Virus record (IMG/VR): IMGVR_UViG_3300005611_000008
Location: 38,204-102,203 of that record
DNA: 64,000 nucleotides
Source of the DNA: a virus
Taxonomy: Duplodnaviria > Caudoviricetes
Strand: one strand, 5' to 3'
Part shown: piece by piece, positions 14,466 through 39,080 of the stretch
Layout of the letters: every line of letters begins with the position of its first letter
Numbering within the stretch: the first letter of the stretch is position 1
Made by a program: the position numbers and the translations under genes
The notes under the pieces: generated by a model
The model's input: the letters and a program-made list of their open reading frames with translations, nothing else
What the model was told of the DNA's origin: nothing
The model's database searches: none

Positions 14466-14472
14466 ATAAATA
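14465..14472 (+). promoter_or_regulatory. T4-type late promoter (gp55-dependent)
   Basis: Exact TATAAATA about 22 nt upstream of the ATG at 14495, with GAGG Shine-Dalgarno. Confidence 0.7.
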
Positions 14473-14488
14473 GTCTCACATTATTGAG

Positions 14489-25400: not shown

Positions 25401-27766
25401 ATGTTGACAATGCAGTCGCGGGTGTTGTAGATTCTGCTCCTGCCGCATTGGATACGCTGAACGAACTTGCCGCGGCACTTGGCGATGATGCTAACTTTGC
25501 AACAACCGTTTCTACAAACATCGGACAAAAGTTGGGTGCAACTGCAACAGTCACTTTAACTGGAGATGTCACTGCAAGTGCGACTGCTTTCTCATCCAAT
25601 GCAGTATCAATCTCTACAGATATTGCATCAAATGTAGTTGGTGCGGCAGAACTGAAGGTTACTGGTAATGGTTCGGTGGATCAGTATTTGGCATCAGATG
25701 GTGATGGAACATTCACATTTAAAGATGTTCCTGCGGGATATACAGATAGCGATGTAGATGATCACCTTTCTGGTGGAACTGGTATTGCATATTCAAGCGG
25801 AACAATTTCAGTTGACTTATCTGAATTAACTGACATGACCCAAACAATGGTAGGCACTGATGAATTCATCGTACTCGACGCAGGTGCTGATCGTCGCAAA
25901 GCAGCAAGTGAGATTGGATTAAGTATCTTTAATAACGATTCGGGATTCTCTACTACAACTGGTACAGTAACCTCTCACACCGTAGGCGCGGGGGATGGTC
26001 TCACTGGTGGTGGTACGGTTACATCAAGTGGAACAACAACAGTAAATGTTGGAGCAGGAACTCTTATCGATGTAACTGCTGATGCGGTTAATGTAGATTT
26101 ATCCGAATTGACTACTTCTACCTCAGATGGCGATGGTGATTTCTTTGTTGTTGTTGATGACGCAAACGCGCAAAAGAAGTTGACGAAAGGCAACATTAAC
26201 ATCTCTGGATTTAACAATGATGCTGGATTCTCAACCACAACTGGTACTGTTACATCAGTAAATCTTACAGCAGGCAATTTAATCGATGTATCTGGTGGTC
26301 CTGTTACCTCATCAGGAAGCATAACAGTCGATGTAGATTTGTCTGAATTGACAGACGGTACTGCTGACATCGTGGGTGCTGAAGATGAACTGGTTTATCT
26401 TGACAATGGTTCTCAGAAACGTAAATTAGTTTCAGAAATTGCAATTGGTCAGTTCAACACCACAAATCAAATTGCACTTGCTACAGACACCACTGGTAAC
26501 TATGTATCAGGCATTTCTGGCACTACCAACGAAATCGAAGTTTCTGGTTCTGGGTCAGAAAACGCAACAGTCACGATTGGACTTCCAAATGATGTAACAC
26601 TCACAGGCGATCTCACAGTCTCTGGTGGCGACATCGTATTGGGTGGTACTGGTCGTATTCAAGGCGTAGACACAGTATCATCTGGTACAGATGCGGCAAA
26701 TAAGACTTATGTTGATAACGCAGTCGCAGGTATTGTAGACTCTGCCCCTGCCGCATTGGATACGCTGAACGAACTTGCTGCGGCACTTGGCGATGATGCT
26801 AACTTTGCAACTACTGTTGCGACTAACCTTGGTCAAAAGTTAGGTGCAACTGCTACCGTTGCGATTACTGGTGCTGTTGCAGGTGGCGCAACTGCCTTCT
26901 CATCCAACTCAGTATCTATCGCAGTAACTCAGCAAAACAACTCAGTAACGCTTGGTACACATACCACTGGTAACTATGTTGCAACGATTACTGGTGGAAC
27001 TGGTTTAACTTCATCGGGGGCAACTTCGGGTGAAGGGATTGCTCATACATTGTCAGTTGACTATGGAACTAGTTCAGGCACTGCTTGTCAAGGTAACGAT
27101 GCTCGACTCAGTGATAGTCGTACTTGTGATAATACATTCGACAATGCATCGACTGCTCGTTCAAATCTTGGATTAGGTTCACTTGCTACACTGTCAACAG
27201 TCAATGCGGCAACCATCACTGATAACTCAGTCGGTGCGGCAGAACTAAATGTTTCTGGCAATGGTTCAGCAGGTCAATACCTTGAATCCGATGGAGACGG
27301 TACATTCACTTGGTCTACTGTATCAGCAGGTGCTACCGTTGAAAGCAAATCTGATGATGTAGATTACAATGTGATCTTCACAGCAGAAACATCAGGCACA
27401 CAAGACAACGCATTTATTAACGCATCAAAGTTGTATTTCAACCCATCTTCTGGTACACTAAATGCTACAGACTTCAACTCTTTGTCTGATGAGAAGTACA
27501 AAGAGAACATTGAGTCTATCGAAAATGCATCTGATGTAGTAAGTCAATTACAAGGACGTTCATTCACTTGGAAAGAAACTGGTAAGAATACCTTTGGTGT
27601 TATTGCACAAGAACTTGAACAAGTACTTCCTGAGTTGGTTAAAGAAAGCAACTCAGGCGACAAAACTGTGAACTACTTAGGACTGATTGCATTTTTGATT
27701 GAGAGCAACAAAGAACTACAAACTCGTTTGGACGCACTTGAAAAGGAAGTGATGAATGGCAATTAA
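22436..27766 (+). CDS. Long tail fibre: Mtd_N-like N-terminus, repeated shaft modules, C-terminal peptidase S74 intramolecular chaperone
   Basis: VQFRRGTTAQN..FTGAVGEI.IDT....RVHDG N-terminus; three APxxLDTLNELAAALGDD modules; SDEKYKENI...GVIAQELEQVLPELV...VNY..LIAFLIES.KEL at the C-terminus. Confidence 0.85.
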   Translation: MPTTVQFRRGTTAQNDNFTGAVGEISIDTTLDQVRVHDGATQGGFKVGRQVDVDDRMQVANAQALFSTAVANLVSTVNVQSYMAVSNAQALFSTVNANNMSVANTRALVNDRLGATASVTLTGDVTGSGSFSSNAVSIALTDTNLGNTNLAIADRMQVANVTSAIATAVSDLVDSAPATLDTLNELAAALGDDENFATTLTTNLGQKLGSTATVTLTGDLTASETAFSSNAVSLSTTLADTGTPTGTFGSGSLIPVITVDSKGRITNISNTSVAGVSSVAYTAANSNFRISTADGTTYDAVIATEKMSVANTQALHTSITANLNSYIANTNPRITNILTSVGSTNTALRTIISNNEANTVTRLANVDSSIITANTRITNALTSIGSTNTAIRAIVANHEANTVTRLDNRMTVANTQALVNARLGATATVEITGDVAGGPTAFSGNTVSIAVTQQNNSVDLGTHTTGNYVATISGTANEVEVSGSGSEGASVTIGLPDDVTVAGQLSVGENVVVSGNLIVSGTTTTVNSEEVNIANTKITLNSDLNGATPASEDAGIIVNRGSDSDVSFIYDEGNDRWTLGSEQLVSGDLIPNTDSAEDLGTTSVRWRKLYADDGDFSGDVSVTGDITVTGSINATIEGQANTAAALSTAREIALGGDLSGSADFDGSQDITIIATVADDSHNHVISNVDGLQDALDNRMTVANTQALADARLGATATVEITGAVAGGATAFSSNAVSIAVTQQNNSVTLGTHTTGNYVGTITGGTGIASTGATSGEGIAHTLSVDLSELTDMTATMVGTDEFIVLDAGADRRKAASEIGLSIFNNDSGFSTTTGTVTSVNLTAGNLIDVSGGPITSSGSITVNVDLSELTDGTDAIVGGEDELVYLDNGSQKRKLVSEIAIGQFNTTNQIALGTDTTGNYIATISGTTNEVEVSGSGSETAGVTIGLPNDVTLTGDLTVSGGDITLGGTGRIQGIDTVSSGTDAANKTYVDNAVAGVVDSAPAALDTLNELAAALGDDANFATTVSTNIGQKLGATATVTLTGDVTASATAFSSNAVSISTDIASNVVGAAELKVTGNGSVDQYLASDGDGTFTFKDVPAGYTDSDVDDHLSGGTGIAYSSGTISVDLSELTDMTQTMVGTDEFIVLDAGADRRKAASEIGLSIFNNDSGFSTTTGTVTSHTVGAGDGLTGGGTVTSSGTTTVNVGAGTLIDVTADAVNVDLSELTTSTSDGDGDFFVVVDDANAQKKLTKGNINISGFNNDAGFSTTTGTVTSVNLTAGNLIDVSGGPVTSSGSITVDVDLSELTDGTADIVGAEDELVYLDNGSQKRKLVSEIAIGQFNTTNQIALATDTTGNYVSGISGTTNEIEVSGSGSENATVTIGLPNDVTLTGDLTVSGGDIVLGGTGRIQGVDTVSSGTDAANKTYVDNAVAGIVDSAPAALDTLNELAAALGDDANFATTVATNLGQKLGATATVAITGAVAGGATAFSSNSVSIAVTQQNNSVTLGTHTTGNYVATITGGTGLTSSGATSGEGIAHTLSVDYGTSSGTACQGNDARLSDSRTCDNTFDNASTARSNLGLGSLATLSTVNAATITDNSVGAAELNVSGNGSAGQYLESDGDGTFTWSTVSAGATVESKSDDVDYNVIFTAETSGTQDNAFINASKLYFNPSSGTLNATDFNSLSDEKYKENIESIENASDVVSQLQGRSFTWKETGKNTFGVIAQELEQVLPELVKESNSGDKTVNYLGLIAFLIESNKELQTRLDALEKEVMNGN
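24950..26860 (+). repeat. ~600-bp direct duplication in the fibre gene (24950-25552 and 26258-26860, offset 1308), plus a ~160-bp duplication (~24788-24949 and ~25814-25975)
   Basis: Near-identical peptides VNLTAGNLIDVSGGP...GQKLGATATV and DLSELTDMT...FSTTTGTVTS, with high nucleotide identity. Confidence 0.85.
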
Positions 27767-28724
27767 AGTTGGTGGTACTAATGTAGTATCGGACAGTAGA
27801 GAACTTGTCGGTCAAGATACGATTACTATTGCGGCAGGAAATCCGTTGGAGGTGCTTGTTCCTCCTCCTATGTCAGGCACTGTGTCGGGGTATAATTCTG
27901 GCGGAACATTTTCGGGTGTCAACACAATCGACAAGTTTCCTTTTGCAACAGATGCTAATGCGACTGATGTTGGTGATTTAACACAAGGAAGATATATTCC
28001 GGCAGGTCAGTCCTCATCCGACAATGGATACGCTTCTGGTGGACGTCCACCATTTGTCACCACAATCGACAAGTTTCCTTTCGCAACTGATGCTAATGCG
28101 ACTGATGTTGGTGATTTAACACAAGGAAGATATGGTGCGGCAGGACAATCTTCATCCGAAAATGGATACAGTTCTGGTGGTTATGCACCACCAACACTAA
28201 ACACAATCGACAAGTTTCCTTTTGCAACAGATGCCAATGCGACTGATGTCGGTGATTTAACACAAACAAGACTATCACCTGCAGGTCAATCTTCATCCGA
28301 AAATGGGTACGCTTCTGGCGGATTTCGACCACCACAAAGCAACGTAATCGACAAGTTTCCATTTGCAACCGATGCCAATGCGACTGATGTTGGTGATTTG
28401 ACACAAGCAAGAAGTAGTCTCTCAGGTGGTCAATCTTCATCGACAGATGGGTATGCTTCTGGCGGTTTTGCACCACCACGAGTCACCACAATCGACAAGT
28501 TTCCATTTGCATCAGATGCCAATGCGACTGACGTTGGTGATTTGACACAAGTAAGAAGTGCTACGGCAGGGCAATCTTCATCGACAGATGGGTATGCTTC
28601 TGGCGGTAATGCACCACCAAATGTCACCACAATCGACAAGTTTCCTTTCGCAACCGATGCTAATGCAACCGATGTCGGTGATTTAACACAAGCAAGAAGT
28701 GGTCCGGCAGGTCAACAGGATTAA
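27756..28724 (+). CDS. Six-bladed Kelch-like beta-propeller protein A (putative fibre tip / receptor-binding)
   Basis: Short N-terminal adaptor, PPP linker, six ~46-aa repeats GYxSGG-var-IDKFPFAxDANATDVGDLTQxR-var-GQ. Confidence 0.75.
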   Translation: MAIKVGGTNVVSDSRELVGQDTITIAAGNPLEVLVPPPMSGTVSGYNSGGTFSGVNTIDKFPFATDANATDVGDLTQGRYIPAGQSSSDNGYASGGRPPFVTTIDKFPFATDANATDVGDLTQGRYGAAGQSSSENGYSSGGYAPPTLNTIDKFPFATDANATDVGDLTQTRLSPAGQSSSENGYASGGFRPPQSNVIDKFPFATDANATDVGDLTQARSSLSGGQSSSTDGYASGGFAPPRVTTIDKFPFASDANATDVGDLTQVRSATAGQSSSTDGYASGGNAPPNVTTIDKFPFATDANATDVGDLTQARSGPAGQQD

Positions 28725-28729
28725 GAGAT

Positions 28730-29707
28730 ATGGCATATAAAATAAATGGTACAGATGCAGTAAACGACGACAAAGAAGGAAACTTTGTTAGTGTCACTAT
28801 GGAAACCGACACAGGGTTCATTCATTTGTTAGATCCTCCTCCTATGTCAGGAACTGTGTCGGGATACACTTCTGGCGGTTCTGCACCACCAACATCCAAC
28901 GTAATCGACAAGTTTCCATTTGCATCAGATGCCAATGCGACTGACGTTGGTGATTTGACACAAGCAAGAACGCGCCCAGCAGGTCAATCCTCATCCGACA
29001 ATGGATACACTTCTGGCGGTTATGCACCTTTCTCAGGTCGCAACACAATCGACAAGTTTCCTTTTGCAACAGATGCCAATGCGACAGATGTTGGCGATTT
29101 AACACAAGCAAGATTTGGTTCGGCAGGTCAATCTTCATACGACAATGGATACAGTTCTGGCGGTTTTGCACCACCAGCAGTCAACACAATCGACAAGTTT
29201 CCATTTGCGTCTGATGCCAACGCGACTGATGTTGGTGATTTATCACAAGCAAGATATTCTGCGACAGGTCAATCTTCATCCGACAATGGATACACTTCTG
29301 GCGGTAGATCACCATCACTTACCACCACAATCGACAAGTTTCCTTTTGCATCAGATGCCAATGCGACAGATGTCGGTGATTTGACACAAGCAAGAAGTGC
29401 TCCGGCAGGTCAATCTTCATCCGACAATGGATACACTTCTGGCGGTGCTACACCACCAAATGTCAACACAATCGACAAGTTTCCATTTGCAACCGATGCC
29501 AATGCGACTGATGTTGGTGATATAACAATAGCAGGAAATTATTTGACAGGTCAATCCTCATCCGACAATGGATACACTTCTGGTGGTGCTGCTCCAAGAC
29601 AAACCGTAATCGACAAGTTTCCATTTGCAACCGATGCCAATGCGACTGACGTTGGTGATTTGACACAAGGAAGAAGTTTTCTTGGCGGGGTAGGTCAACA
29701 AGACTAA
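28730..29707 (+). CDS. Six-bladed Kelch-like beta-propeller protein B
   Basis: Same architecture as A; six repeats; ends GQQD. Confidence 0.75.
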   Translation: MAYKINGTDAVNDDKEGNFVSVTMETDTGFIHLLDPPPMSGTVSGYTSGGSAPPTSNVIDKFPFASDANATDVGDLTQARTRPAGQSSSDNGYTSGGYAPFSGRNTIDKFPFATDANATDVGDLTQARFGSAGQSSYDNGYSSGGFAPPAVNTIDKFPFASDANATDVGDLSQARYSATGQSSSDNGYTSGGRSPSLTTTIDKFPFASDANATDVGDLTQARSAPAGQSSSDNGYTSGGATPPNVNTIDKFPFATDANATDVGDITIAGNYLTGQSSSDNGYTSGGAAPRQTVIDKFPFATDANATDVGDLTQGRSFLGGVGQQD

Positions 29708-29722
29708 TATTTAATTTTCAGA

Positions 29723-29730
29723 ACTAAATA
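29723..29730 (+). promoter_or_regulatory. T4-type late promoter variant
   Basis: ACTAAATA in the intergenic gap upstream of the oxygenase cassette. Confidence 0.55.
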
Positions 29731-29767
29731 GTGTATTCTTTTATGAAAATGGTAAGGTGAAAATATA

Positions 29768-30331
29768 ATGTACGGCAAAGAACATCCAAGTCAACATAAT
29801 GTGTTTCAATCTCCGATTTGGGGGTTTATACTAAATACAGAGCAATATCACGCAATTGACTACATTGACACAATTATGAAAATGAAAGAGACGATGCCAT
29901 CCCAAGTGAAAAGTAATATGGGGGGATGGCAGTCTGATGACAACCTCCACTCTCACGGCATCTTTCGTGAGTTTGCATCAATTATCAGAAAGTTGTCAAG
30001 TGAAATATTAGAATCGTATACCAAACGTGAAGTTTATGTTCAGTCTATGTGGGCAAATGTTAATCATAAATACAATATGAATATGGCACACACGCACGAA
30101 GGCGAACTCTCGGGGGTGTTTTATTTGAAGATTCCACCAGATTCTGGACGATTGATTCTTGTGAATCCCATGATTCGTTCAGAGATGAAAGTGATTCGAG
30201 AAAAGAACTATTCGATAGAACCGGAAAATCTTGCGTGTATCATGTTTCCTAGTTGGATGGAGCATTATGTGGAAATGAATCAAAGTGATGAAGATAGAAT
30301 TAGTATTAGTTTTAATATTGGAGTTAGATAA
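29768..30331 (+). CDS. 2OG-Fe(II) oxygenase (TIGR02466-like)
   Basis: SNMGGWQS, WANVN...HTH..LSGVFYL, FPSWMEHYV..N.S.EDRISISFN. Confidence 0.8.
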   Translation: MYGKEHPSQHNVFQSPIWGFILNTEQYHAIDYIDTIMKMKETMPSQVKSNMGGWQSDDNLHSHGIFREFASIIRKLSSEILESYTKREVYVQSMWANVNHKYNMNMAHTHEGELSGVFYLKIPPDSGRLILVNPMIRSEMKVIREKNYSIEPENLACIMFPSWMEHYVEMNQSDEDRISISFNIGVR

Positions 30332-31608
30332 TGGGAAGTGAAATTAAAGACTATTTTGAAGACAATGGATATGTTGTTCTTTCGAATGCGATTACACAAG
30401 ATCGTGCAAACTTTTTAACACATCATATGTTTAGTCTATACGATTCAAACAAATTAGTTCGTGATGACCAATGCCCTAAATCGGATGCTGTGTATGGTGA
30501 TGCACATATGGAAGAACTGCTACACGAGTTTGCAGTTCCAATCGGTAATCAAATCGGTCGTCTTCTTGCTCCCACTTATGCGTATGCTCGCATTTATCGT
30601 CCCGGCGAAGTGCTGAAAAAACACAAAGATCGTCCTGCGTGTGAAATTTCTGCTACGATGACTCTTGGTTTTGATGGCAAGTCAGTATACCCCATCTTCT
30701 TCTCAAATGGTGAAAAACATCAAGTTCCAGTTCAGTTGGACGTAGGTGAACTCGCAGTCTATAAAGGGTGTGAGTTATTGCATTGGAGAAACGAGTTCAA
30801 GGGCAAGTGGCATGTACAAGTATTCTTACATTATGTCGATCTAGATGGTCCTTATGCAGATGAAGCAGGTGATAGTCGCACACGAGGCAAACGACCCACT
30901 CCTAATGTGGTTCATCATCAAGAACAACAACAACTTGATGAAACTCCTAAAATAACTGAAAAAAAAGTAAAGGTTTCAAGACCTCATTATGACTCAGTGT
31001 ATATTCCAAGCAGTGATGATACTTTACCCGGATACATTGGCATTAACTCAAAACATATGCCAGAACTGATGTTTACCAAAGAAGAGTGCGACCGAATTGT
31101 TAATCTGACAAAAGATTTATACCACGCAGATGCAACAGTAGGTGGTGATCACAAAGGTAAGTTTGAACAAGAAATTCGTAAGGCAAATATTTTCGTATTG
31201 GAAAACGACGAAGAAAACCGTTGGATTTTCGAAAAACTTTGTAAGATTATTTCAGTTCTTAATCAAGAACATTACGACTATGAGATTTCAGGTATTGTCC
31301 ACGGTTTGCAATTGATTCATTATACAAGTGATGATGAAGTCAAGGGGCATTACGATTGGCACGTAGATGCAGGTCGCGGTCCAGTAGCAACAAGAAAGAT
31401 TAGTGTGACCGTTCAACTGACTGATCCTAATGAATATGAAGAATGCGATTTAGTCGTCAACGATCACGGCAACATTTTTGAGGCAACTCGTGAGCAAGGA
31501 TCTATAAATAGTTTTCCAAGTTATATGCCACATAAAGTGACCAATATTACAAAAGGCGAGAGATATGCTCTTGTCATCTGGGTTCATGGTTCTAGGAGAT
31601 TTAGATAA
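30331..31608 (+). CDS. Tandem two-domain 2OG-Fe(II) oxygenase (C-domain prolyl-4-hydroxylase/PKHD-like)
   Basis: Domain 1 YARIY..G..L.KHKDRPACEIS...HWR; domain 2 YDWHVD...RKIS...FPSYMPHKVT.ITKGERYALV.W. Confidence 0.8.
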   Translation: MGSEIKDYFEDNGYVVLSNAITQDRANFLTHHMFSLYDSNKLVRDDQCPKSDAVYGDAHMEELLHEFAVPIGNQIGRLLAPTYAYARIYRPGEVLKKHKDRPACEISATMTLGFDGKSVYPIFFSNGEKHQVPVQLDVGELAVYKGCELLHWRNEFKGKWHVQVFLHYVDLDGPYADEAGDSRTRGKRPTPNVVHHQEQQQLDETPKITEKKVKVSRPHYDSVYIPSSDDTLPGYIGINSKHMPELMFTKEECDRIVNLTKDLYHADATVGGDHKGKFEQEIRKANIFVLENDEENRWIFEKLCKIISVLNQEHYDYEISGIVHGLQLIHYTSDDEVKGHYDWHVDAGRGPVATRKISVTVQLTDPNEYEECDLVVNDHGNIFEATREQGSINSFPSYMPHKVTNITKGERYALVIWVHGSRRFR

Positions 31609-31609
31609 T

Positions 31610-32584
31610 ATGACAGCAAAAGTGAAAGAAGAAGTGCAGATTGCACAAGAGTTAGAAGAGTCTAAAATGAATACTATTTCGGTATTTGAAGACATTCGTA
31701 CAAACAATGATATTGTGGTGGCAGATCCAGAAAAGTTGAAGATCCCTCTTGCCACTGTGTTTGGACGAGGCACTACAACTAACCTACCAAGTTTTGGTGG
31801 AAGAACTTTGAGTGAGAACACTCAACTTGTAGATGCAGCAATGAAAAATGTAGGACAGTTGGAAAATATCTGGAATCACTCTCATTCACAATGGACTTGG
31901 AAGCACATCAACTTTTCATACCACAGTCCTATCAAAAATATGCGTCAGATTTCTGCGGAAATGACTAAGAAGAAAACTGCACTGTCCGAGGCAAAGTGGA
32001 GACACGTCAAGAACGAAGCAAAGATTTGCAAACTTCAAGACGAGTTGCAAGACACATCTGATATGGACTATTGGAGAGAGGTTGAACTTAAAATCAAACT
32101 CGCAGAACTGAAAGAAAAAGCAGTTGAGTCCATGACTTACATTGAAGGTGCAATGAAAGATGTGCTTGCCCTTCAAGAAATTTACGAAGATCTCAAAGAG
32201 AAAGTCAGTGAGTTCAGTGAGCAAGATGTCGAGTTGCTTGAATCTAAAACTCATATGAAAAGAAGTTTAGTACAATGTATTCGTGATATACGCCAAGCAG
32301 GGCACATCTCAAAAGGCGAGCAAGAATACGTAGAACAAATTGGAGTTAATGTAGGTAAACTCCAACACATCTTGAAAAAGTATGTTGAGTCAGAAGCATC
32401 CCAAGAGTCTTGGGACAGTTCTGGTCTTTTTGAATTCGTAGATAAATTAGCAGATGAATTAATTACTGTGCACAAGGTTGATGTGAAGAGAATGGAACTT
32501 CTTGGTTATGATCCAGACCCAACAGAAGAAATCACTTATAACAGCAAATTAGCACTACCAAAAAGTAGTCAGGAGGAAGAGTAA
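31610..32584 (+). CDS. Hypothetical helical/coiled-coil protein
   Basis: ATG 31610 with AGGAG SD; long charged heptad region. Confidence 0.7.
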   Translation: MTAKVKEEVQIAQELEESKMNTISVFEDIRTNNDIVVADPEKLKIPLATVFGRGTTTNLPSFGGRTLSENTQLVDAAMKNVGQLENIWNHSHSQWTWKHINFSYHSPIKNMRQISAEMTKKKTALSEAKWRHVKNEAKICKLQDELQDTSDMDYWREVELKIKLAELKEKAVESMTYIEGAMKDVLALQEIYEDLKEKVSEFSEQDVELLESKTHMKRSLVQCIRDIRQAGHISKGEQEYVEQIGVNVGKLQHILKKYVESEASQESWDSSGLFEFVDKLADELITVHKVDVKRMELLGYDPDPTEEITYNSKLALPKSSQEEE

Positions 32585-32919
32585 TGGCAGTAGTTGAATA
32601 CATGCTTCAAAAAATAAATGGTAATAGCAAAGCAGAAATTCCCGGTTTTATCGGAGATCGAGGGCATTGGTACAATTCAGCAGATCATACCTATGTTGGT
32701 TGGATCGATGACGAAAGAGATTATTATGTACCAGACTCAATCAAAACTTTAACCAAAGAACAGTTCGTGACTCGTACACTTGGAATGCATGCAACCAATC
32801 CTATGATGAACGAAATGGATATGGAAAACCCAGATGCTGAACCAGAAGCAATGACTGATGCAGAAGTCACGACAATGGCAGAACAGTGGTACGATAATTT
32901 CGTTTCACAAAATTCATGA
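32584..32919 (+). CDS. Hypothetical protein
   Basis: TAATG coupling, GGAGG SD; 111 aa, acidic. Confidence 0.7.
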   Translation: MAVVEYMLQKINGNSKAEIPGFIGDRGHWYNSADHTYVGWIDDERDYYVPDSIKTLTKEQFVTRTLGMHATNPMMNEMDMENPDAEPEAMTDAEVTTMAEQWYDNFVSQNS

Positions 32920-33653
32920 AGTTATATGAGAAAATCTCACATATAAAACAACTGACCGATTCTATCGGAACAATCTACGGTACAGAGGACTTTTCAGTTT
33001 TTCTGTACTCGTTGATTAAAATGAAAAGACCAAACACCGTGGTTGAACTAGGAACTGGTGTTGGCACAGCAATGTTGTGGTCAGCACTGGCAATGGAAGA
33101 AAACGGGTTTGGTTCCTTCATTACAGTTGATGATGGTTCAGAGTGGCAGAGAATTTCTCAAGTAGCACCGAGATTTAGTTCGTACTACCGTGAAGACTAT
33201 GCAACGTATATCAACAGTCTCATAAAGACTTTTGAGTTTGAGAATCAAATTCAGTTTGTTAATAAACGAATTGATGTGGTGGATGTTGAAGACACTATTG
33301 ACATTTTGTTTTCTGATTTCGCGCACTCTGTGTATGACATCGTGAAGTTGTTGGTGCAGTATCTGCCAAAGATGAGTGCAGATTCTGTTCTGTTTATTGA
33401 CAGTGCCTCGACTAACTTTTCCAGTATGAGTATGCTTGAAAAGACTGTGGAACTGTTTAACATGAACCAAGTGCCTTTGTCAATGTTGGAGTTGTCGAGC
33501 AACCCACACGAGTTGCAACAGATTGTTTCGAGTCATCGGTTCAGTGTAGAGCATATCATAGAAAATAAAGACCGAGCACAGAACAGTACGGCAATGATAC
33601 GAATGACTCCGATAGATATATTTCCGCATCCGAGAGTGAATTTAAAGTTATGA
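32916..33653 (+). CDS. Class I SAM-dependent methyltransferase (Methyltransf_24-like)
   Basis: VVELGTGVG motif I, TVDD, IDILFSDFAH. Confidence 0.75.
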   Translation: MKLYEKISHIKQLTDSIGTIYGTEDFSVFLYSLIKMKRPNTVVELGTGVGTAMLWSALAMEENGFGSFITVDDGSEWQRISQVAPRFSSYYREDYATYINSLIKTFEFENQIQFVNKRIDVVDVEDTIDILFSDFAHSVYDIVKLLVQYLPKMSADSVLFIDSASTNFSSMSMLEKTVELFNMNQVPLSMLELSSNPHELQQIVSSHRFSVEHIIENKDRAQNSTAMIRMTPIDIFPHPRVNLKL

Positions 33654-34210
33654 TTAAGGTAATAGATAATGTAATCGGTGATAAATATTCTAGTTACGTA
33701 TTTGAAGAGTGTGCTAAGTTAAAATGGACTTTCGTACCAGAGATTAGTGTAGGAAACAACCCAAACGGTAGGAATACCTCTGGGTTTTCATACAATTTCT
33801 TTCTGAACAAACACTTTAACAACAATGAACAAAAGACGATTCGAGATAGTAAGTACGACTTGATTTGTCCTATTTTTTTAGAAGCATTTGACAAACTGCA
33901 AATGAACTTGGACTTGTCAGATATTTTCAGATGTCGTGCTAGATTGACTCTGCCACAATATGGATTGTCGGAAAAAGATCGTGTGGATGTGCCACATAAC
34001 GATTATAAGTCTCCTCATTGGGTGATGATCTATTATGTGAATAATGTAGACGGAGATACGCTGATGTTTGATGGCAACAAGATTATTGATCGCATTGCCC
34101 CTCGACGAGGACAAGTTGTTTTGTTTGATGGTTCAATATTACACGCAAGCACAACACCTGCACTAAACCCTCGTATTATTATAAATAGTAACATATTCAA
34201 GAGAGATTAA
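33650..34210 (+). CDS. 2OG-Fe(II) oxygenase
   Basis: PHND (HxD), IYYVNNVDGDT, FDGSILHAS, RIIIN. Confidence 0.8.
   Translation: MIKVIDNVIGDKYSSYVFEECAKLKWTFVPEISVGNNPNGRNTSGFSYNFFLNKHFNNNEQKTIRDSKYDLICPIFLEAFDKLQMNLDLSDIFRCRARLTLPQYGLSEKDRVDVPHNDYKSPHWVMIYYVNNVDGDTLMFDGNKIIDRIAPRRGQVVLFDGSILHASTTPALNPRIIINSNIFKRD
34180..34187 (+). promoter_or_regulatory. T4-type late promoter embedded in the oxygenase 3' end
   Basis: TATAAATA upstream of the small ORF and the second propeller cluster. Confidence 0.65.
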
Positions 34211-34214
34211 AACT

Positions 34215-34343
34215 GTGGAAATCGAAATTGCAAACAAAATTGAAGAACTAGATCTAAATGAACTTATTGAAGTGTTGATGAAATTTAAAATGGAAGATAT
34301 GGAAGCATTTTTGATTTTAAAGGAAATCATAGAGGACTTATAA
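34215..34343 (+). CDS. Small acidic helical protein (42 aa; below the ORF-track cutoff)
   Basis: GTG..TAA reading MEIEIANKIEELDLNELIEVLMKFKMEDMEAFLILKEIIEDL; fills the gap exactly; GAGAG SD. Confidence 0.6.
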   Translation: MEIEIANKIEELDLNELIEVLMKFKMEDMEAFLILKEIIEDL

Positions 34344-34344
34344 A

Positions 34345-35334
34345 GTGGCAATTCGCGTCTACAATGATAGAATTGAGTTAGGAGATTATACGCTCACATA
34401 TTCTTCCGCAGAATCTCGTTTCGAGTTTGATGGCACTATCACAGCACTATCTTATTCTTTACCACCACCTCCTGCGTCAGGTACTGTGTCTGGATACACT
34501 TCTGGCGGTGCTTCACCATCAACAGTCAACACAATCGACAAGTTCCCTTTTGCGACAGATGCCAATGCGACTGATGTCGGTGATTTAACACAAGCAAGAA
34601 GGTTGATGGCAGGTCAATCTTCATCGACAGATGGATACACTTCTGCCGGTTTTGCACCACCACATAGCAACACAATCGATAAGTTCCCATTCGCGACAGA
34701 TGCCAATGCGACAGATGTCGGTGATTTAACACAAGCAAGAGAAGGTTCGGCAGGTCAATCTTCATCTGACAATGGATACACTTCTGGCGGTAATACACCC
34801 ACACCAAGGACCACAATCGACAAGTTTCCATTTGCAACTGACGCAAACGCGACTGATGTCGGTGATTTGACACAAGCAAGAAGGTTGATGGCAGGTCAAT
34901 CTTCAACCGACAATGGATACAGTTCTGGCGGTGAGGCACCGGGACGAGTCAATACAATCGACAAGTTTCCTTTTGCAACAGATGCCAATGCGACTGATGT
35001 TGGGGATTTAACACAAGCAAGAAATAGTGCGGCAGGTCAACAATCGCTCGAAAATGGATACAGTTCTGGCGGTTATGCACCATCTAGTGCAGTCACCACA
35101 ATCGACAAGTTTCCTTTCGCATCAGATGCCAATGCGACTGACGTTGGTGATTTAACACAAACAAGAAGGTTGACAGTAGGTCAATCTTCAACCGACAATG
35201 GATACACTTCTGGCGGTTATGCACCACCAAATGTCAACACAATCGACAAGTTTCCTTTCGCATCAGACGCCAATGCGACAGATGTTGGTGATTTGACACA
35301 AGCAAGAAGGGAGTTGGCAGGTCAACAGGATTAA
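34345..35334 (+). CDS. Six-bladed Kelch-like beta-propeller protein C
   Basis: GTG start with GAGG SD; six repeats. Confidence 0.75.
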   Translation: MAIRVYNDRIELGDYTLTYSSAESRFEFDGTITALSYSLPPPPASGTVSGYTSGGASPSTVNTIDKFPFATDANATDVGDLTQARRLMAGQSSSTDGYTSAGFAPPHSNTIDKFPFATDANATDVGDLTQAREGSAGQSSSDNGYTSGGNTPTPRTTIDKFPFATDANATDVGDLTQARRLMAGQSSTDNGYSSGGEAPGRVNTIDKFPFATDANATDVGDLTQARNSAAGQQSLENGYSSGGYAPSSAVTTIDKFPFASDANATDVGDLTQTRRLTVGQSSTDNGYTSGGYAPPNVNTIDKFPFASDANATDVGDLTQARRELAGQQD

Positions 35335-35339
35335 GAGAT

Positions 35340-36314
35340 ATGGCAATAAAAATCTACCCAGAAAAAATTGAATTCGATGACTATACCTTAACTGTTACTG
35401 ACAATGGTTTTGAGTTTGATGGCGATATTAGAACATTAGGAAGAATCACCCCTGCACCTCCTATGTCAGGCACTGTGTCGGGATACACTTCTGGCGGTGC
35501 AACACCATTTGCCACCACAATCGACAAGTTCCCATTCGCGACAGATGCCAATGCGACAGATGTTGGTGATTTGACACAAGCAAGAGCACAACAGGCAGGT
35601 CAATCTTCAGAGACAGATGGATACAGTTCTGGCGGTAATGCACCACCATTTGTCAACACAATCGACAAGTTTCCTTTTGCATCAGATGCCAACGCGACTG
35701 ACGTTGGTGATTTAACACAAGCAAGAAATAATTTGGCGGGTCAATCTTCATCGACAGATGGATACAGTTCTGGCGGTGCAGCACCGGCAATAGGCAACAT
35801 AATCGATAAGTTTCCATTTGCAACCGATGCCAATGCAACCGATGTCGGTGATTTAACACAAGGAAGATATAGTGCGGCAGGTCAATCTTCATCGACAGAT
35901 GGATATACTTCTGGCGGTACACCACCAATAGTCAACGTAATCGACAAGTTTCCTTTCGCAACAGATGCTAATGCGACTGACGTTGCCGATTTAACACAAG
36001 CAAGAAGTAACCTATCAGGTCAATCTTCATCCGACAATGGGTACAGTTCTGGCGGTGCTACACCAACACGAGTCAACACAATCGACAAGTTTCCTTTCGC
36101 AACTGATGCCAATGCGACTGACGTTGGTGATTTATCACAAATAAGAAGTAGTGTGGCAGGTCAATCTTCATCCGAAAATGGATACACTTCTGGTGGTTTT
36201 GCACCACCATTTGCCACCACAATCGACAAGTTCCCATTCGCGACAGATGCCAATGCGACTGATGTCGGTGATTTAACACAAGCAAGAAGTGCTCCGGCAG
36301 GTCAACAGGATTAA
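35340..36314 (+). CDS. Six-bladed Kelch-like beta-propeller protein D
   Basis: Six repeats; ends GQQD. Confidence 0.75.
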   Translation: MAIKIYPEKIEFDDYTLTVTDNGFEFDGDIRTLGRITPAPPMSGTVSGYTSGGATPFATTIDKFPFATDANATDVGDLTQARAQQAGQSSETDGYSSGGNAPPFVNTIDKFPFASDANATDVGDLTQARNNLAGQSSSTDGYSSGGAAPAIGNIIDKFPFATDANATDVGDLTQGRYSAAGQSSSTDGYTSGGTPPIVNVIDKFPFATDANATDVADLTQARSNLSGQSSSDNGYSSGGATPTRVNTIDKFPFATDANATDVGDLSQIRSSVAGQSSSENGYTSGGFAPPFATTIDKFPFATDANATDVGDLTQARSAPAGQQD

Positions 36315-36319
36315 GAGAT

Positions 36320-37303
36320 ATGTCAATAAAAATCTATAAAGACAAAATAGAATGGGATGATCAAACAATCTCTGTTACAGGTGAAGGTTTAGAGTTTGAC
36401 GCGGAGTTGCTTGCTCCAGAGTTTCTTGTACCACCATCTCCTCCTATGTCAGGCACTGTGTCAGGATATACTTCTGGCGGTAATCCAACATCCAACGTAA
36501 TCGACAAGTTTCCATTTGCATCAGATGCCAATGCGACAGATGTTGGTGATTTATCACAAGCAAGAAGGCAGTCGGCAGGTCAATCTTCAACCGACAATGG
36601 ATACACTTCTGGCGGTGATGCACCACCACGAGTCACCACAATCGACAAGTTTCCTTTCGCAACAGATGCCAATGCGACTGACGTTGGTGATTTAACACAA
36701 GCAAGAAATAATTTGGCGAGTCAATCTTCAGAGACAGATGGATACAGTTCTGGCGGTTATGCAGCACCACGAGTCAACACAATCGACAAGTTTCCTTTTG
36801 CAAGTGATGCCAATGCGACTGACGTTGGCGATTTAACACAAATAAGAAATTATGTGGTAGGTCAATCTTCAGAGACAGATGGATACAGTTCTGGCGGTTT
36901 TGCACCAACAGGACGAGTCAACACAATCGACAAGTTTCCTTTCGCATCTGATGCTAATGCGACTGACGTTGGTAATTTAACAGTGGCAAGAAGTGGTTCC
37001 GCAGGTCAATCTTCAACCGATAATGGATACGCCTCTGGCGGAGCAGCACCACCAGGACGAGTCAACACAATCGACAAGTTTCCGTTTGCATCTGATGCTA
37101 ATGCGACTGATGTCGGTGATTTATCACAAACAAGAGATGTTGCGACAGGTCAATCTTCATCGACAGATGGATATACTTCTGGCGGTGATGCACCACCAAG
37201 TGTCAACACAATCGACAAGTTTCCTTTTGCAACTGATGCCAATGCGACAGATGTCGGTGATTTGACAGTAGCAAGAAGTTCCGCGGCAGGTCAACAGGAT
37301 TAA
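36320..37303 (+). CDS. Six-bladed Kelch-like beta-propeller protein E
   Basis: Six repeats; ends GQQD. Confidence 0.75.
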   Translation: MSIKIYKDKIEWDDQTISVTGEGLEFDAELLAPEFLVPPSPPMSGTVSGYTSGGNPTSNVIDKFPFASDANATDVGDLSQARRQSAGQSSTDNGYTSGGDAPPRVTTIDKFPFATDANATDVGDLTQARNNLASQSSETDGYSSGGYAAPRVNTIDKFPFASDANATDVGDLTQIRNYVVGQSSETDGYSSGGFAPTGRVNTIDKFPFASDANATDVGNLTVARSGSAGQSSTDNGYASGGAAPPGRVNTIDKFPFASDANATDVGDLSQTRDVATGQSSSTDGYTSGGDAPPSVNTIDKFPFATDANATDVGDLTVARSSAAGQQD

Positions 37304-37308
37304 GAGAT

Positions 37309-38283
37309 ATGGCAATAAAAGTAAGCGGTACAACAGTATTCGATGACGATTTAACTTCTTCTCTAGAAAAAGTGTCGGTTCCTGATGGATTTGTTTTGGT
37401 GGATGCAGAACCACCTCCTCCTCCTATGTCAGGCACTGTGTCGGGGTATGCTTCTGGTGGTGGTTCACCACCACGAGTCAACACAATCGACAAGTTTCCA
37501 TTTGCATCAGATGCCAATGCGACTGACGTTGGTGATTTGACACAAGCAAGATATTATGCGTCAGGTCAATCTTCAACCGACAATGGATACAGTTCTGGCG
37601 GTGAGTCACCCTCGGCACCGGGACGAGTCACCACAATCGACAAGTTTCCTTTTGCGTCTGATGCCAATGCGACTGACGTTGGTGATTTAACACAAGCAAG
37701 AGATGGTGGCGCAGGTCAATCCTCATTCGATAATGGATACACCTCTGGCGGTGCTACACCATCACGAGTTATCACAATCGACAAGTTTCCTTTTGCAAGT
37801 GATGCCAATGCGACAGATGTTGGCGATATGACAGTAGCAAAAGCATATCTTGCAGGTCAATCTTCATCCGACAATGGGTACTTTTCTGGCGGTGGTACAC
37901 CATCAATAGTCAACACAATCGAAAAGTTTCCATTTGCAACCGATGCCAATTCGATTGACGTTGCCGATTTAACACAGGCAAGATCGGCGGTGCAAGGTCA
38001 ATCTTCATCGACAGATGGATACAGTTCTGGCGGTTTTGCACCACCTGCAGTCAACACAATCGACAAGTTTCCATTTGCGTCAGATGCCAATGCGACTGAT
38101 GTTGGTGATTTAACACAAGCAAGACAAGATGCGGCAGGTCAATCTTCATCCGACAATGGGTACGCTTCTGGCGGTTTTCTTGTCAACACAATCGACAAGT
38201 TTCCTTTCGCAACAGATGCCAATGCGACTGATGTCGGTGATTTATCGCAAACAAGATTTGCTGCGGCAGGTCAACAAGACTAA
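37309..38283 (+). CDS. Six-bladed Kelch-like beta-propeller protein F
   Basis: Six repeats; ends GQQD. Confidence 0.75.
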   Translation: MAIKVSGTTVFDDDLTSSLEKVSVPDGFVLVDAEPPPPPMSGTVSGYASGGGSPPRVNTIDKFPFASDANATDVGDLTQARYYASGQSSTDNGYSSGGESPSAPGRVTTIDKFPFASDANATDVGDLTQARDGGAGQSSFDNGYTSGGATPSRVITIDKFPFASDANATDVGDMTVAKAYLAGQSSSDNGYFSGGGTPSIVNTIEKFPFATDANSIDVADLTQARSAVQGQSSSTDGYSSGGFAPPAVNTIDKFPFASDANATDVGDLTQARQDAAGQSSSDNGYASGGFLVNTIDKFPFATDANATDVGDLSQTRFAAAGQQD

Positions 38284-38293
38284 ATCCAAAACA

Positions 38294-38328
38294 TATAAAT
38301 AGTCCTAGCAGATTAGTGTTAGGATTAT
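38294..38328 (+). promoter_or_regulatory. Late promoter TATAAATA (38294-38301) overlapping an SD-sequestering hairpin (38299-38328)
   Basis: ATAGTCCTAGCA-gattag-TGTTAGGATTAT, 12-bp stem with 2 G-U pairs, covering the AGGA SD of gp13. Confidence 0.7.
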
Positions 38329-38332
38329 AAAA

Positions 38333-39076
38333 ATGGCAAATCCAAGAAGCAGAACAGATTTAAAAAACTACTGTCTCCGTAGACTTGGGCATCCGGTTAT
38401 TGAGATCAACATCGATGAAGATCAGATGCAAGATCGCATAGACGATGCTCTTGAATTCTATCGCGACTATCACTATGATGGTGTGGAAAGAACTTACTAC
38501 AAGCACCAAGTCACATCATCAGATCAGACAAACGGTTACATTGATATTCCTACTAACATCAATGGTGTTATTAACGTCTTTCCTATTGGCACTGGACTCA
38601 ATGCTAATAATCTATTCAACCTACGCTATCAGATTACACTCAACGAAATCTACGATTGGTCGCATGCTCAGTTTGTAAACTATACTGAGTCTATGCGTCG
38701 AGTAGCACTGATGGAAGAGATTTTCGTTGGTAAGCAACCACTGCGTTTCAATCGTCACATGGATCGTTTGTTTATCGACATGGATTGGAACACTCGCACT
38801 GTTGTCGGTGAGTATCTCATCATCGAAGCATATCGTGTACTTGACCCAGACACCTACACATCTGTTTGGGGTGATCGTTGGTTACGACAATATACTACAC
38901 AACTATTCAAACGTCAATGGGGCGAGAACATGAAGAAGTTTGAAGGGATGCAATTGCCCGGTGGTGTGCAGTTCAATGGACAGCAAATCTGGAACGAAGC
39001 AGATGAGGAAATTAAGCGGTTAGAAGAAGAAGTTGTAAACAACTACTCAATGCCCGCGATGGACATGATTGGGTAA
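38333..39076 (+). CDS. gp13: Neck protein gp13
   Basis: LKNYCLRRLG.PVIEINID..Q..DRID.AL; QWG.N..KF.G.QLPGGV..NG; start of T4 core synteny. Confidence 0.92.
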   Translation: MANPRSRTDLKNYCLRRLGHPVIEINIDEDQMQDRIDDALEFYRDYHYDGVERTYYKHQVTSSDQTNGYIDIPTNINGVINVFPIGTGLNANNLFNLRYQITLNEIYDWSHAQFVNYTESMRRVALMEEIFVGKQPLRFNRHMDRLFIDMDWNTRTVVGEYLIIEAYRVLDPDTYTSVWGDRWLRQYTTQLFKRQWGENMKKFEGMQLPGGVQFNGQQIWNEADEEIKRLEEEVVNNYSMPAMDMIG

Positions 39077-39080
39077 TTAA

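What the first reader, a model, noticed from the sequence alone, without database searches (positions are those of the whole stretch)
27756..38283. Six-gene, 36-blade repertoire of Kelch-like propellers with a constant framework and two hypervariable loops per blade
Seen: six genes directly downstream of the long tail fibre, each with exactly six ~46-aa repeats. The scaffold IDKFPFA(T/S)DANATDVGDLTQ..GQSSS.NGY.SGG is almost invariant across all 36 blades. Variation is confined to the ~3 residues after the Arg (YIP, YGA, RLM, NNL, DGG, YYA...) and the Pro-rich, length-variable loop after GG. Each domain starts mid-repeat and ends AGQQD. Known: Kelch propellers have the R...GG pattern, close by such a strand permutation, and bind ligands with the two top-face loops. 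Inferred: an antibody-like set of receptor-binding tips with a fixed framework and variable loops on one face, giving a multi-specific adsorption apparatus.
Basis: partly seen in the sequence, partly recalled or inferred. Interest (0 to 1): 0.9.

Follow-up and report, generated by a model that had tools for sequence, protein, structure and literature searches.

The report
Six phage Kelch-propeller binding-head genes
An uncultured marine T4-like phage carries six late genes beside its tail-fibre and neck genes; each encodes a six-bladed Kelch-type propeller with a nearly identical scaffold and its own surface loops on one face, probably host-binding heads from a very large, undescribed phage-only family, although none has yet been shown in a virus particle.

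Summary
Six paralogous genes of 322-329 aa each carry six ~47-aa repeats, 36 in all. The scaffold is almost invariant, and diversity peaks just after the conserved Arg and just after the GG doublet. One correction: the genes lie as 2 + 4, split by a 4.6-kb cassette of oxygenase and methyltransferase genes.

AlphaFold2 gives a confident six-bladed propeller (pLDDT 93). Its best matches are the Keap1/KLHL Kelch domains (TM 0.89). No Pfam Kelch model matches, so this is a separate sequence family with the Kelch fold.

By strand order, both variable loops lie on the face that Kelch proteins use for ligands. Loop codons show pooled dN/dS of about 2.2, against 0.07 in the scaffold. Scaffold DNA is homogenised within this genome without regard to gene or blade position, which points to concerted evolution. 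I found no reverse transcriptase and no template copy, so the 36 loop sets are fixed in the genome, not generated anew.

Three things favour virion-borne binding heads: relatives fuse the propeller to fibre anchors (Mtd_N, collagen, TIG, Gly-rich, ConA-like), late promoters precede the genes, and the fibre-to-neck position recurs in many phages. No data show virion presence or a ligand.

The family has over 11,000 sequence clusters and is essentially virus-only. This scan has already met it in at least seven other genomes.

The parts
22436..27766 (+). Long tail fibre (1776 aa) with an Mtd_N anchor at the N-terminus and a self-cleaving Peptidase_S74 chaperone at the C-terminus. Its stop overlaps the start of propeller gene 1 by 11 nt.
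   Evidence: Pfam Mtd_N E 9e-10, Peptidase_S74 E 7e-15; coordinates
27756..28724 (+). Propeller gene 1 (322 aa), six blades, class I N-terminal adaptor (MAIKVGGT...)
28730..29707 (+). Propeller gene 2 (325 aa), six blades, class I adaptor
29768..30331 (+). 2OG-Fe(II) oxygenase (187 aa)
   Evidence: PF13759 E 1e-19, phrog_81; homologue near propeller arrays in 25 of 68 loci
30331..31608 (+). Two-domain oxygenase (425 aa). The N-terminal half matches the PHROG labelled 'ferrochelatase'. The C-terminal half is a P4H-type 2OG-Fe(II) oxygenase.
   Evidence: PF13640 E 6e-10, phrog_2954 and phrog_61; homologue in 39 of 68 loci
31503..31510 (+). T4-type late promoter motif TATAAATA ahead of the conserved helical gene
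   Evidence: 12 matches in the window, all on +, 2 expected
31610..32584 (+). Conserved helical protein of unknown function. The ORF opens at 31565; the start at 31610 is the likely one by comparison with homologues. It is the most conserved gene of the cassette.
   Evidence: No Pfam or PHROG hit; 65% mean column identity over 15 phages; in 34 of 68 loci; AF2 all-helical, pLDDT 67, no fold match
32584..32919 (+). Small unknown protein (111 aa) of the cassette
   Evidence: No family; homologue in 32 of 68 loci
32916..33653 (+). SAM-dependent methyltransferase (245 aa)
   Evidence: PF13578 E 1e-8; homologue in 17 of 68 loci
33650..34210 (+). 2OG-Fe(II) oxygenase-like protein (186 aa)
   Evidence: PF13640 E 6e-5, below the curated cut-off; phrog_274 and phrog_61
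34180..34187 (+). T4-type late promoter motif ahead of the four-gene propeller block. A 42-codon ORF at 34216-34344 lies in between.
34345..35334 (+). Propeller gene 3 (329 aa, GTG start), six blades, class II adaptor (MAIRVYNDRIE...)
35340..36314 (+). Propeller gene 4 (324 aa), class II adaptor; this is the protein that was modelled
   Evidence: AF2 pLDDT 93.2, pTM 0.86; Keap1 Kelch E 5e-22, TM 0.89
36320..37303 (+). Propeller gene 5 (327 aa), class II adaptor
37309..38283 (+). Propeller gene 6 (324 aa), class I adaptor; it has both the longest and the shortest 2-3 loops
38333..39076 (+). gp13-like neck protein, the downstream boundary of the module, preceded by a late promoter motif at 38294-38301
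   Evidence: phrog_211 E 1.5e-42; promoter; gp14 and gp15 follow

Best explanation
The six genes are late-expressed paralogues. Each encodes a short N-terminal beta adaptor, a Pro-rich linker and a six-bladed Kelch-fold beta-propeller. The propeller is closed by pairing the N-terminal SGYxSGG strand with the C-terminal AGQQD strand.

Most likely they are virion-borne binding heads that recognise surface structures of the host, or other surfaces the phage meets. Whether they attach to the fibre apparatus or to the neck/collar is open. Binding would use the top face, built from twelve loops per propeller: six 4-1 loops after the conserved Arg and six 2-3 loops after GG.

The scaffold is kept by strong purifying selection across the whole family. 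In this genome it is also homogenised at the DNA level by recombination among all 36 repeats. About six loop codons per blade are kept different by diversifying selection. The repertoire of 6 heads and 36 loop sets is hard-wired in the genome and evolves slowly; it is not generated on demand.

Shown or computed here: the genes, the repeats, the predicted fold, the loop positions in the strand topology, the selection signature, the homogenisation, the synteny, the late-promoter motifs and the fusion architectures. Inferred: virion location, ligand binding, and any modification by the nested oxygenases.
For: Fold: the AF2 model has pLDDT 93.2 and pTM 0.86, with 24 strands in six four-strand units plus a four-strand N-terminal domain. 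Foldseek's top 50 are Keap1, KLHL3, KLHL12 and designed SAKe6 propellers (E down to 5e-22, TM 0.85-0.92, rmsd ~2.2 A over ~285 residues). A profile search of PDB sequences returns only Kelch proteins (KLHL12 E 0.01), with GG and Arg in register.

Loop placement: the variable columns fall in the segments 125-132 and 98-106 of the model, which are the 4-1 and 2-3 loops.

Selection: codon positions 1 and 2 of the six hypervariable columns have pi 0.69 and 0.61, against 0.24 at four-fold sites of the scaffold and 0.02-0.03 at scaffold positions 1 and 2. Pooled Nei-Gojobori dN/dS is 2.2 in the loops and 0.07 in the scaffold.

Homogenisation: synonymous codon differences are 0.23 within this array and 0.43-0.55 against 14 other phage arrays. 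The 66-nt framework distance is the same for blades of one gene (0.118), of one blade position (0.114) and all others (0.115). All four gametes occur in 100 of 153 site pairs.

Virion link: the genes sit between a genuine tail fibre (Mtd_N + Peptidase_S74) and gp13/gp14/gp15. TATAAATA late motifs lie before the blocks. The same position recurs in IMG/VR relatives: gp13 is found in 34 loci and a fibre homologue in 35 of 68. Relatives carry the propeller at the C-terminus of Mtd_N, collagen, IPT/TIG, Gly_rich_2 or Laminin_G_3 stalks. Kelch-fold proteins are recorded as virion components of jumbo phages (BFVD hits; CBB_552 by mass spectrometry, PMC5259590).

Virus-only: only 10 relatives turned up among 185,579 species' genomes, all on short MAG contigs.
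Against: No proteomic, microscopic or binding datum exists for any family member. The only cultured carrier found is Synechococcus phage S-SKS1, where all copies are annotated hypothetical.

The window's six proteins lack a recognised fibre anchor. Their ~35-aa adaptors match no family and occur in no other protein of the window.

Three of the five AF2 models had low confidence.

The dN/dS values are pooled over non-independent pairs close to saturation, and no site-model likelihood test was run. The four-gamete result could partly reflect recurrent mutation at two-fold sites.

Variants within 90%-identity clusters are not focused on the loops, so there is no sign of fast ongoing diversification.
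Confidence: 0.6

Rival explanations
1. The propellers are substrates of the nested tailoring cassette. The P4H-type 2OG oxygenases and the methyltransferase would modify the exposed loops, for example the kept Pro at GG+3 in the GG-x-A-P-P segment. The functional surface would then be chemically decorated, and further enzymes might glycosylate or sulfate it. This extends the best explanation and does not exclude it.
For: The cassette lies inside the array. Homologues of the 425-aa oxygenase are within 10 kb of propeller genes in 39 of 68 loci, and homologues of the conserved helical protein in 34. In the unrelated phage S-SKS1 the propeller genes are also interleaved with 2OG oxygenases, a 'ferrochelatase'-labelled homologue and a sulfotransferase. 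Pro at GG+3 is kept in 28 of 30 blades here, and the xAPPxVNT loop form is kept in S-SKS1 at 33% identity. A 'hydroxylate then sulfate' logic has been proposed for such bacterial and phage neighbourhoods (PMC2938197).
Against: Cyanomyovirus S-SM2 has the same type of oxygenase cassette among its fibre genes but no propellers, so the link may be to fibre modules in general. Loop-proline frequency does not differ between loci with and without the oxygenase (0.49 against 0.52). That test is weak, because many of the loci are truncated. No chemistry has been shown anywhere.
Confidence: 0.3
2. The propellers are non-structural host-takeover proteins. Like eukaryotic and poxviral Kelch adaptors, they would bind different host proteins inside the infected cell.
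For: The closest solved folds are substrate adaptors of Cul3 ligases. Poxvirus Kelch proteins appear among the viral structural matches.
Against: There is no BTB/BACK or other effector domain. The genes are late, on the structural strand, between fibre and neck. Relatives are fused to fibre anchors and collagen stalks. A takeover function would be expected among early genes.
Confidence: 0.07
3. The propellers are virion decoration with no specific ligand. The loops would vary because they are unconstrained surface segments, possibly aiding antigenic or defence evasion or general stickiness. The conserved opposite face (the invariant DANATD 3-4 loops) would be the functional, partner-binding side.
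For: The 3-4 loop motif is invariant in all 36 blades and nearly invariant across the family, which is more than a passive loop needs. Population variants are scattered rather than loop-focused.
Against: Diversity at codon positions 1 and 2 of the loop codons exceeds both their own third positions and scaffold synonymous diversity. That is not expected from relaxed constraint on homogenised DNA. Conversion would erase neutral loop differences unless selection kept them.
Confidence: 0.12
4. The loop variation is produced by a dedicated diversity generator, either a DGR-type retroelement or another targeted hypermutation.
For: The framework-plus-hypervariable-loop pattern resembles DGR variable proteins. 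The fibre and some relatives carry the Mtd_N domain, first described in the Bordetella phage DGR target protein.
Against: There is no reverse transcriptase in the 102-kb record, which is 57% complete. There is no non-coding template copy: all 36 units are coding. Changes are not adenine-specific and hit codon positions 1 and 2 with all bases. Members of 90% clusters do not differ preferentially in the loops.
Confidence: 0.03

Closest known systems
BTB-Kelch substrate-adaptor propellers (Keap1, KLHL3, KLHL12)
   Same: Six four-stranded blades of ~47 aa, with a GG doublet ending strand 2 and a conserved Arg before strand 1. The predicted structure superposes at TM 0.85-0.9 and ~2.2 A. The variable loops correspond to the top-face loops. 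Keap1 binds Nrf2 on its top face, with all six blades contributing (PMC4629420).
   Different: About 17-19% identity. No Pfam Kelch model matches. The conserved Trp of strand 4 is absent. There is no BTB/BACK domain. Blades are ~80% identical to each other, against ~20-25% in cellular Kelch proteins (the latter figure is my own knowledge). The context is a phage late structural module.
Podospora anserina het-d/het-e/HNWD WD40-repeat genes (Paoletti et al. 2007, PMC1805685)
   Same: These are propeller repeats with very high internal conservation. Concerted evolution exchanges repeats within and between paralogous genes. A few codons per repeat on the interaction face are under positive diversifying selection. 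Here the matching results are: no gene or position structure, homogenised synonymous sites, and dN/dS 2.2 against 0.07.
   Different: The fold family differs (WD40 against Kelch), as do the kingdom and the role (fungal NLR allorecognition against a phage structural module). Repeat number varies in HNWD but is fixed at six here. RIP plays no part here.
Kelch-domain virion proteins of jumbo phages (Pectobacterium phage CBB gp552, PhiPA3 and Phabio virion structural proteins)
   Same: They are phage-encoded Kelch-fold proteins, some of them found in virions by mass spectrometry (PMC5259590). They appear among the structural matches.
   Different: They are recognised by standard Kelch models, are single or few genes, and have no reported arrays, homogenised scaffolds or hypervariable loop sets. 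Structural similarity is weaker (E 1e-9 to 1e-13) than to the family's own members.
PHROG 19111 / Synechococcus phage S-SKS1 hypothetical proteins (SWZG_00001, 00287, 00289-291)
   Same: This is the same sequence family (phrog_19111 E 1e-26 to 1e-33; S-SKS1 at 33.7% identity over 89%). S-SKS1 also has an array near a tail-fibre gene, interleaved with 2OG oxygenases.
   Different: S-SKS1 is classed in a different genus (Llyrvirus) from the T4-like relatives of this window's phage. Its blades read YGYFGGG...IDRIDFSNETTS. It has eight or more blades in some proteins and a sulfotransferase in its array. All copies are annotated hypothetical.

Membership tests
Kelch-repeat beta-propeller (fold class) | Five to seven tandem repeats of ~44-56 residues | tested here: met
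   Six repeats spaced 44-50 aa apart in each of the six proteins
Kelch-repeat beta-propeller (fold class) | Each repeat forms a four-stranded antiparallel blade, arranged radially, with closure by a strand from the other terminus | tested here: met
   The AF2 model has 24 strands in six groups of four and pLDDT 93. The best structural matches are Keap1/KLHL Kelch domains, TM 0.85-0.92. This is a prediction, not a solved structure. Closure is inferred from the sequence and the strand map, since model coordinates could not be inspected.
Kelch-repeat beta-propeller (fold class) | Sequence signature: hydrophobic strand plus GG doublet, spaced aromatic residues (Tyr, Trp), conserved Arg | tested here: inconclusive
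   GG is present in 29-30 of 30 blades, Arg in 28 of 30, and Phe stands at the Tyr position (KFPF). No Trp equivalent exists. The register with KLHL12 is consistent in the profile alignment.
Pfam Kelch families (Kelch_1 to Kelch_6) | A match to a Pfam Kelch model at or above the gathering score | tested here: not met
   No Kelch model was reported for any of the six proteins even at E <= 1; only spurious short matches appeared. A profile against PDB sequences reaches Kelch proteins only at E 0.01-1.3.
Phage receptor-binding or fibre-head protein | Encoded in the late structural module beside fibre, baseplate or neck genes | tested here: met
   The genes lie between the Mtd_N/Peptidase_S74 fibre and gp13-gp15. 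Late-promoter motifs are present. The synteny recurs in the 68 loci.
Phage receptor-binding or fibre-head protein | A modular N-terminal anchor or stalk with a C-terminal binding head | tested here: inconclusive
   Relatives have Mtd_N, collagen, TIG, Gly_rich_2 or Laminin_G_3 N-terminal to a C-terminal propeller. The window's own six have only a ~35-aa adaptor that matches no known family.
Phage receptor-binding or fibre-head protein | Present in the virion and binding a host surface receptor | not testable with these tools
   No proteomics or binding data were found for any member.
HNWD-type repeat diversification (concerted evolution plus positive selection) | Repeats are exchanged within and between paralogues, so there is no phylogenetic structure by gene or position and synonymous sites are homogenised | tested here: met
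   Distances are 0.118, 0.114 and 0.115. Synonymous differences are 0.23 within the array and 0.43-0.55 between phages. The four-gamete test gives 100 of 153 pairs.
HNWD-type repeat diversification (concerted evolution plus positive selection) | A few codons per repeat on the interaction surface are under positive selection | tested here: met
   Pooled NG86 dN/dS is 2.2 at six columns and 0.07 in the scaffold. The columns lie in the 4-1 and 2-3 loops. No likelihood site-model test was run.
HNWD-type repeat diversification (concerted evolution plus positive selection) | Repeat number varies between alleles and paralogues | tested here: not met
   All six genes have exactly six repeats. Most relatives also have about six per propeller.
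Diversity-generating retroelement target | A reverse transcriptase and a template repeat nearby, with adenine-specific substitutions | tested here: not met
   No RVT_1 match in the 102-kb record, which is 57% complete. There is no non-coding copy. All bases vary at codon positions 1 and 2.

The most novel reading that the evidence does not exclude
The array is a recombination-maintained recognition repertoire for a virus. Six heads, possibly working as two sets of three defined by their adaptor classes, would present 36 selected loop sets. These would be post-translationally hydroxylated or otherwise tailored by the co-encoded oxygenase/methyltransferase cassette. The phage would thereby gain a multi-specific, chemically decorated adsorption surface, in a new structural class of receptor-binding protein that is widespread in aquatic phages.
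Probability: 0.25. Interest if true: 0.8.

Novelty: new variant of a known kind. Interest (0 to 1): 0.6.

Why it matters
If these propellers are host-binding heads, they define a major unrecognised class of phage receptor-binding module. The family has more than 11,000 clusters at 50% identity, is essentially confined to viruses, and sits in tail modules of abundant aquatic T4-like phages and a cyanophage.

That would improve host-range prediction for uncultured marine phages. It would also supply a natural, highly symmetric scaffold with twelve designable loops. And it would be a viral example of the 'concerted evolution plus diversifying selection' route to recognition diversity, known so far from fungal NLR WD40 repeats.

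The recurrent pairing with 2OG oxygenases would also make post-translational tailoring of phage adhesins directly testable.

Tried and rejected
Complex prediction of the three class II N-terminal adaptors (residues 1-42, 1-40 and 1-41 of genes 3-5) returned 'no answer', score 0.01. It says nothing either way about oligomerisation.

Public runs: no RNA holder is listed. Four seawater or plankton DNA runs, held as contigs only, were laid on 27000-39100. A ~99%-identical strain covers the cassette (30173-34490), but contigs break at both array edges and the many 'joints' are repeat artefacts. No information on loop microdiversity could be drawn.

Variants within two 90%-identity clusters of relatives are scattered or absent, not loop-focused.

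The test is weak, because loci without the oxygenase are mostly truncated contigs.

The conserved helical cassette protein gave nothing: no Pfam or PHROG family, an uninformative ESM Atlas result (best 0.81), an AF2 pLDDT of 67, and no Foldseek match with E <= 0.001.

Megablast of 24 kb against cultured phages found nothing.

I first took the phage for a cyanomyovirus. TerL is in fact closest to Sinorhizobium phages phiM12 and phiN3 (57-58%), with cyanophages at ~50%, so the host is unknown.

Literature searches for Kelch tail-fibre proteins returned only author-name hits.

The idea that adaptor classes come in exact threes is only partly borne out. Class II genes number three and lie adjacent in about six lineages and never exceed three, but class I counts vary.

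Loop placement therefore rests on strand order.

Full report
**What is there.** The window is part of a 102-kb IMG/VR virus record estimated to be 57% complete. The region holds six + strand ORFs of 322-329 aa: 27756-28724, 28730-29707, 34345-35334, 35340-36314, 36320-37303 and 37309-38283. Each contains six I(D/E)KFPF anchors spaced 44-50 residues apart. At the DNA level there are exactly 36 copies of a 104-nt unit, 70-90% identical (TRF period 141). The profile of the family finds these six copies and no others in the record.

The genes are not contiguous. Two follow the long fibre, and the first start overlaps the fibre's stop. Then comes a 4.6-kb cassette. Then come four more genes, separated by 5-nt spacers.

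**Repeat anatomy.** In 30 complete blades, 19 columns are invariant. Entropy peaks at the three residues after the conserved Arg (columns 23, 24, 26) and at GG+1, GG+4 and GG+8 (columns 41, 44, 48), reaching 2.3-3.2 bits. Moderate variation occurs at about ten further columns, and Pro at GG+3 is kept in 28 of 30 blades. The 36 blades carry 32 distinct post-Arg loops and 35 distinct post-GG loops. Each protein begins its repeat region with half a repeat (SGTVSGYxSGG) and ends with AGQQD. Ahead of that lie a ~35-aa N-terminal segment and a Pro-rich linker.

**Fold.** No Pfam Kelch model matches. PHROG 19111, of unknown function, matches at E 1e-26 to 1e-33. A profile of 46 family members searched against PDB sequences returns only Kelch proteins (KLHL12 at E 0.01), with the GG doublets and the Arg in register.

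AlphaFold2 on that alignment gives pLDDT 93.2 and pTM 0.86 for gene 4. The model has 24 strands in six groups of four, a four-stranded N-terminal mini-domain and a low-confidence linker. Two of five models were confident and three were not. Foldseek's best matches are Keap1, KLHL3, KLHL12 and designed SAKe6 propellers (E to 5e-22, TM 0.85-0.92, rmsd about 2.2 A). Among viral models, the family's own members come first, including S-SKS1. Phage and poxvirus Kelch proteins follow, some of them annotated virion structural proteins. One such jumbo-phage Kelch protein, CBB_552, was found in virions by mass spectrometry (PMC5259590).

**Where the variable residues sit.** In the model, the post-GG segment links strands 2 and 3 and the post-Arg segment links strand 4 to strand 1 of the next blade. 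In a four-strand antiparallel meander these two loops emerge on the same face. The invariant A(T/S)DANATD loop (3-4) and the S-x-(D/N)-G turn (1-2) emerge on the other. The Keap1 Kelch domain binds Nrf2 on its top face, with all six blades contributing (PMC4629420).

**Evolutionary signature.** At the six hypervariable columns, nucleotide diversity is 0.69 and 0.61 at codon positions 1 and 2, and 0.44 at position 3. Four-fold synonymous sites of the scaffold show 0.24, and scaffold positions 1 and 2 show 0.02-0.03. Pooled Nei-Gojobori estimates give dN/dS 2.2 in the loops and 0.07 in the scaffold. Loop dN is 3.9 times scaffold dS.

Scaffold synonymous codons differ in 23% of comparisons within this array, but in 43-55% of comparisons with 14 other phage arrays. 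Several of those arrays are not homogenised internally (0.49-0.61) yet keep the same protein scaffold. So the scaffold is held family-wide by purifying selection, and in this genome it is homogenised as well.

The 66-nt framework is equally distant between blades of one gene (0.118), blades at one position (0.114) and all others (0.115). All four gametes occur in 100 of 153 informative site pairs. Recombination among all 36 repeats is the simplest explanation. Recurrent mutation may contribute.

There is no reverse transcriptase in the record and no non-coding template copy. Natural variants within 90% clusters are not focused on the loops. The diversity is therefore hard-wired and selected, not generated on demand. 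The closest described parallel is the Podospora HNWD WD40 gene family (PMC1805685).

**Context.** Upstream lies a 1776-aa fibre with an Mtd_N anchor and a Peptidase_S74 self-cleaving chaperone. Downstream lie gp13, gp14, gp15, the large terminase and the sheath. TerL is closest to Sinorhizobium phages phiM12 and phiN3 (57-58%) and about 50% identical to cyanophages, so the host is unknown.

The T4 late-promoter motif TATAAATA occurs 12 times, always on the + strand, against 2 expected. It stands before the four-gene block, before the conserved helical gene and before gp13.

The insert encodes three 2OG-Fe(II) oxygenases (two of them P4H-type), a methyltransferase and two unknown proteins.

**Relatives.** The family is very large. 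More than 4,000 of 8,000 scored candidates matched in one search. A second search found 11,447 clusters at 50% identity (3,273 at E <= 1e-30), including multi-propeller proteins and many forms with the propeller at the C-terminus of a longer protein. Among 185,579 prokaryote species' genomes, only ten short MAG contigs hold a relative.

In IMG/VR, 68 loci carry arrays of one to nine paralogues. Of these, 34 also show gp13, 35 a fibre homologue, 39 the 425-aa oxygenase and 34 the helical protein within 10 kb. In some loci a single propeller gene lies between gp14 and gp15 (L006).

Longer relatives fuse the propeller to Mtd_N (E 1e-13), collagen triple helix (E 5e-13), IPT/TIG, Gly_rich_2 or Laminin_G_3 domains. 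These are anchor, stalk and adhesin modules of fibres.

Synechococcus phage S-SKS1 is the only cultured phage with the family. It also has an array next to a tail-fibre gene, interleaved with 2OG oxygenases and a sulfotransferase. Cyanomyovirus S-SM2 has an oxygenase cassette among its fibre genes without any propellers. The enzyme link may therefore be to fibre modules in general.

**N-terminal adaptors.** The six fall into two classes: genes 1, 2 and 6, and genes 3, 4 and 5. Class II genes occur as three adjacent genes in about six lineages and never number more than three. A complex prediction of the three class II adaptors gave no verdict.

**Verdict.** The Kelch-fold and same-face readings are supported. 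'Receptor-binding tips' is the best but unproven reading, at about 0.6. 'Antibody-like' applies to the architecture only.

The family appears undescribed in the searched literature. It has been met by this scan in at least seven other genomes. Those notes reached similar readings and were treated here as leads only.

Noticed in passing
window 31610-32584 (ORF opens at 31565): This helical protein is the best-conserved gene of the cassette, more conserved than gp13: 65% mean column identity across 15 phages, with an invariant WNHSHxQWxWKH-type motif. It has its own late promoter at 31503. It matches no family or fold and accompanies propeller arrays in 34 of 68 loci.
   Followed up: partly
window, every blade (e.g. 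28022-28050); L001 7809-9034: The invariant 3-4 loop reads D-A-N-A-T-D, which fits the bacterial N-glycosylation sequon D/E-x-N-x-S/T. The N-x-T is kept as N-E-T-T in S-SKS1 at 33% identity. It may simply be the Kelch T-(N/D)-x-W turn. No test was possible.
   Followed up: no
window 10819-19376 and 29768-34210: There are two separate enzyme islands inside the fibre module. I examined only the second. Cyanophage S-SM2 likewise has four oxygenase genes between tail-fibre genes (L070 8971-11505).
   Followed up: partly
L006 9890-10858; also L045, L030, L046: In some relatives a single propeller gene sits between gp14 and gp15, the neck and tail-terminator genes. This hints at a neck or collar location, whisker-like, rather than a fibre tip.
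   Followed up: partly
window 34216-34344: A 42-codon ORF lies between the late promoter motif at 34180 and propeller gene 3. It was not examined further.
   Followed up: no
window 22436-27766: The long fibre contains large internal duplications: the DSAPAxLDTLNELAAALGDD segment recurs three times, and the LSELTD and IGLPxDVT blocks recur several times.
   Followed up: no
window 27844 and 34490: Contigs from independent seawater metagenomes that match the flanks at ~99% stop at the edges of both arrays. Short-read assemblies evidently cannot cross these repeats, so array length and blade order in metagenome records deserve long-read confirmation.
   Followed up: partly
L072-L080 (MAG contigs): Five of the ten prokaryote-genome hits lie on short contigs binned into one gammaproteobacterial MAG (Nau_16). 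These are probably mis-binned phage DNA and at best a weak host hint.
   Followed up: no
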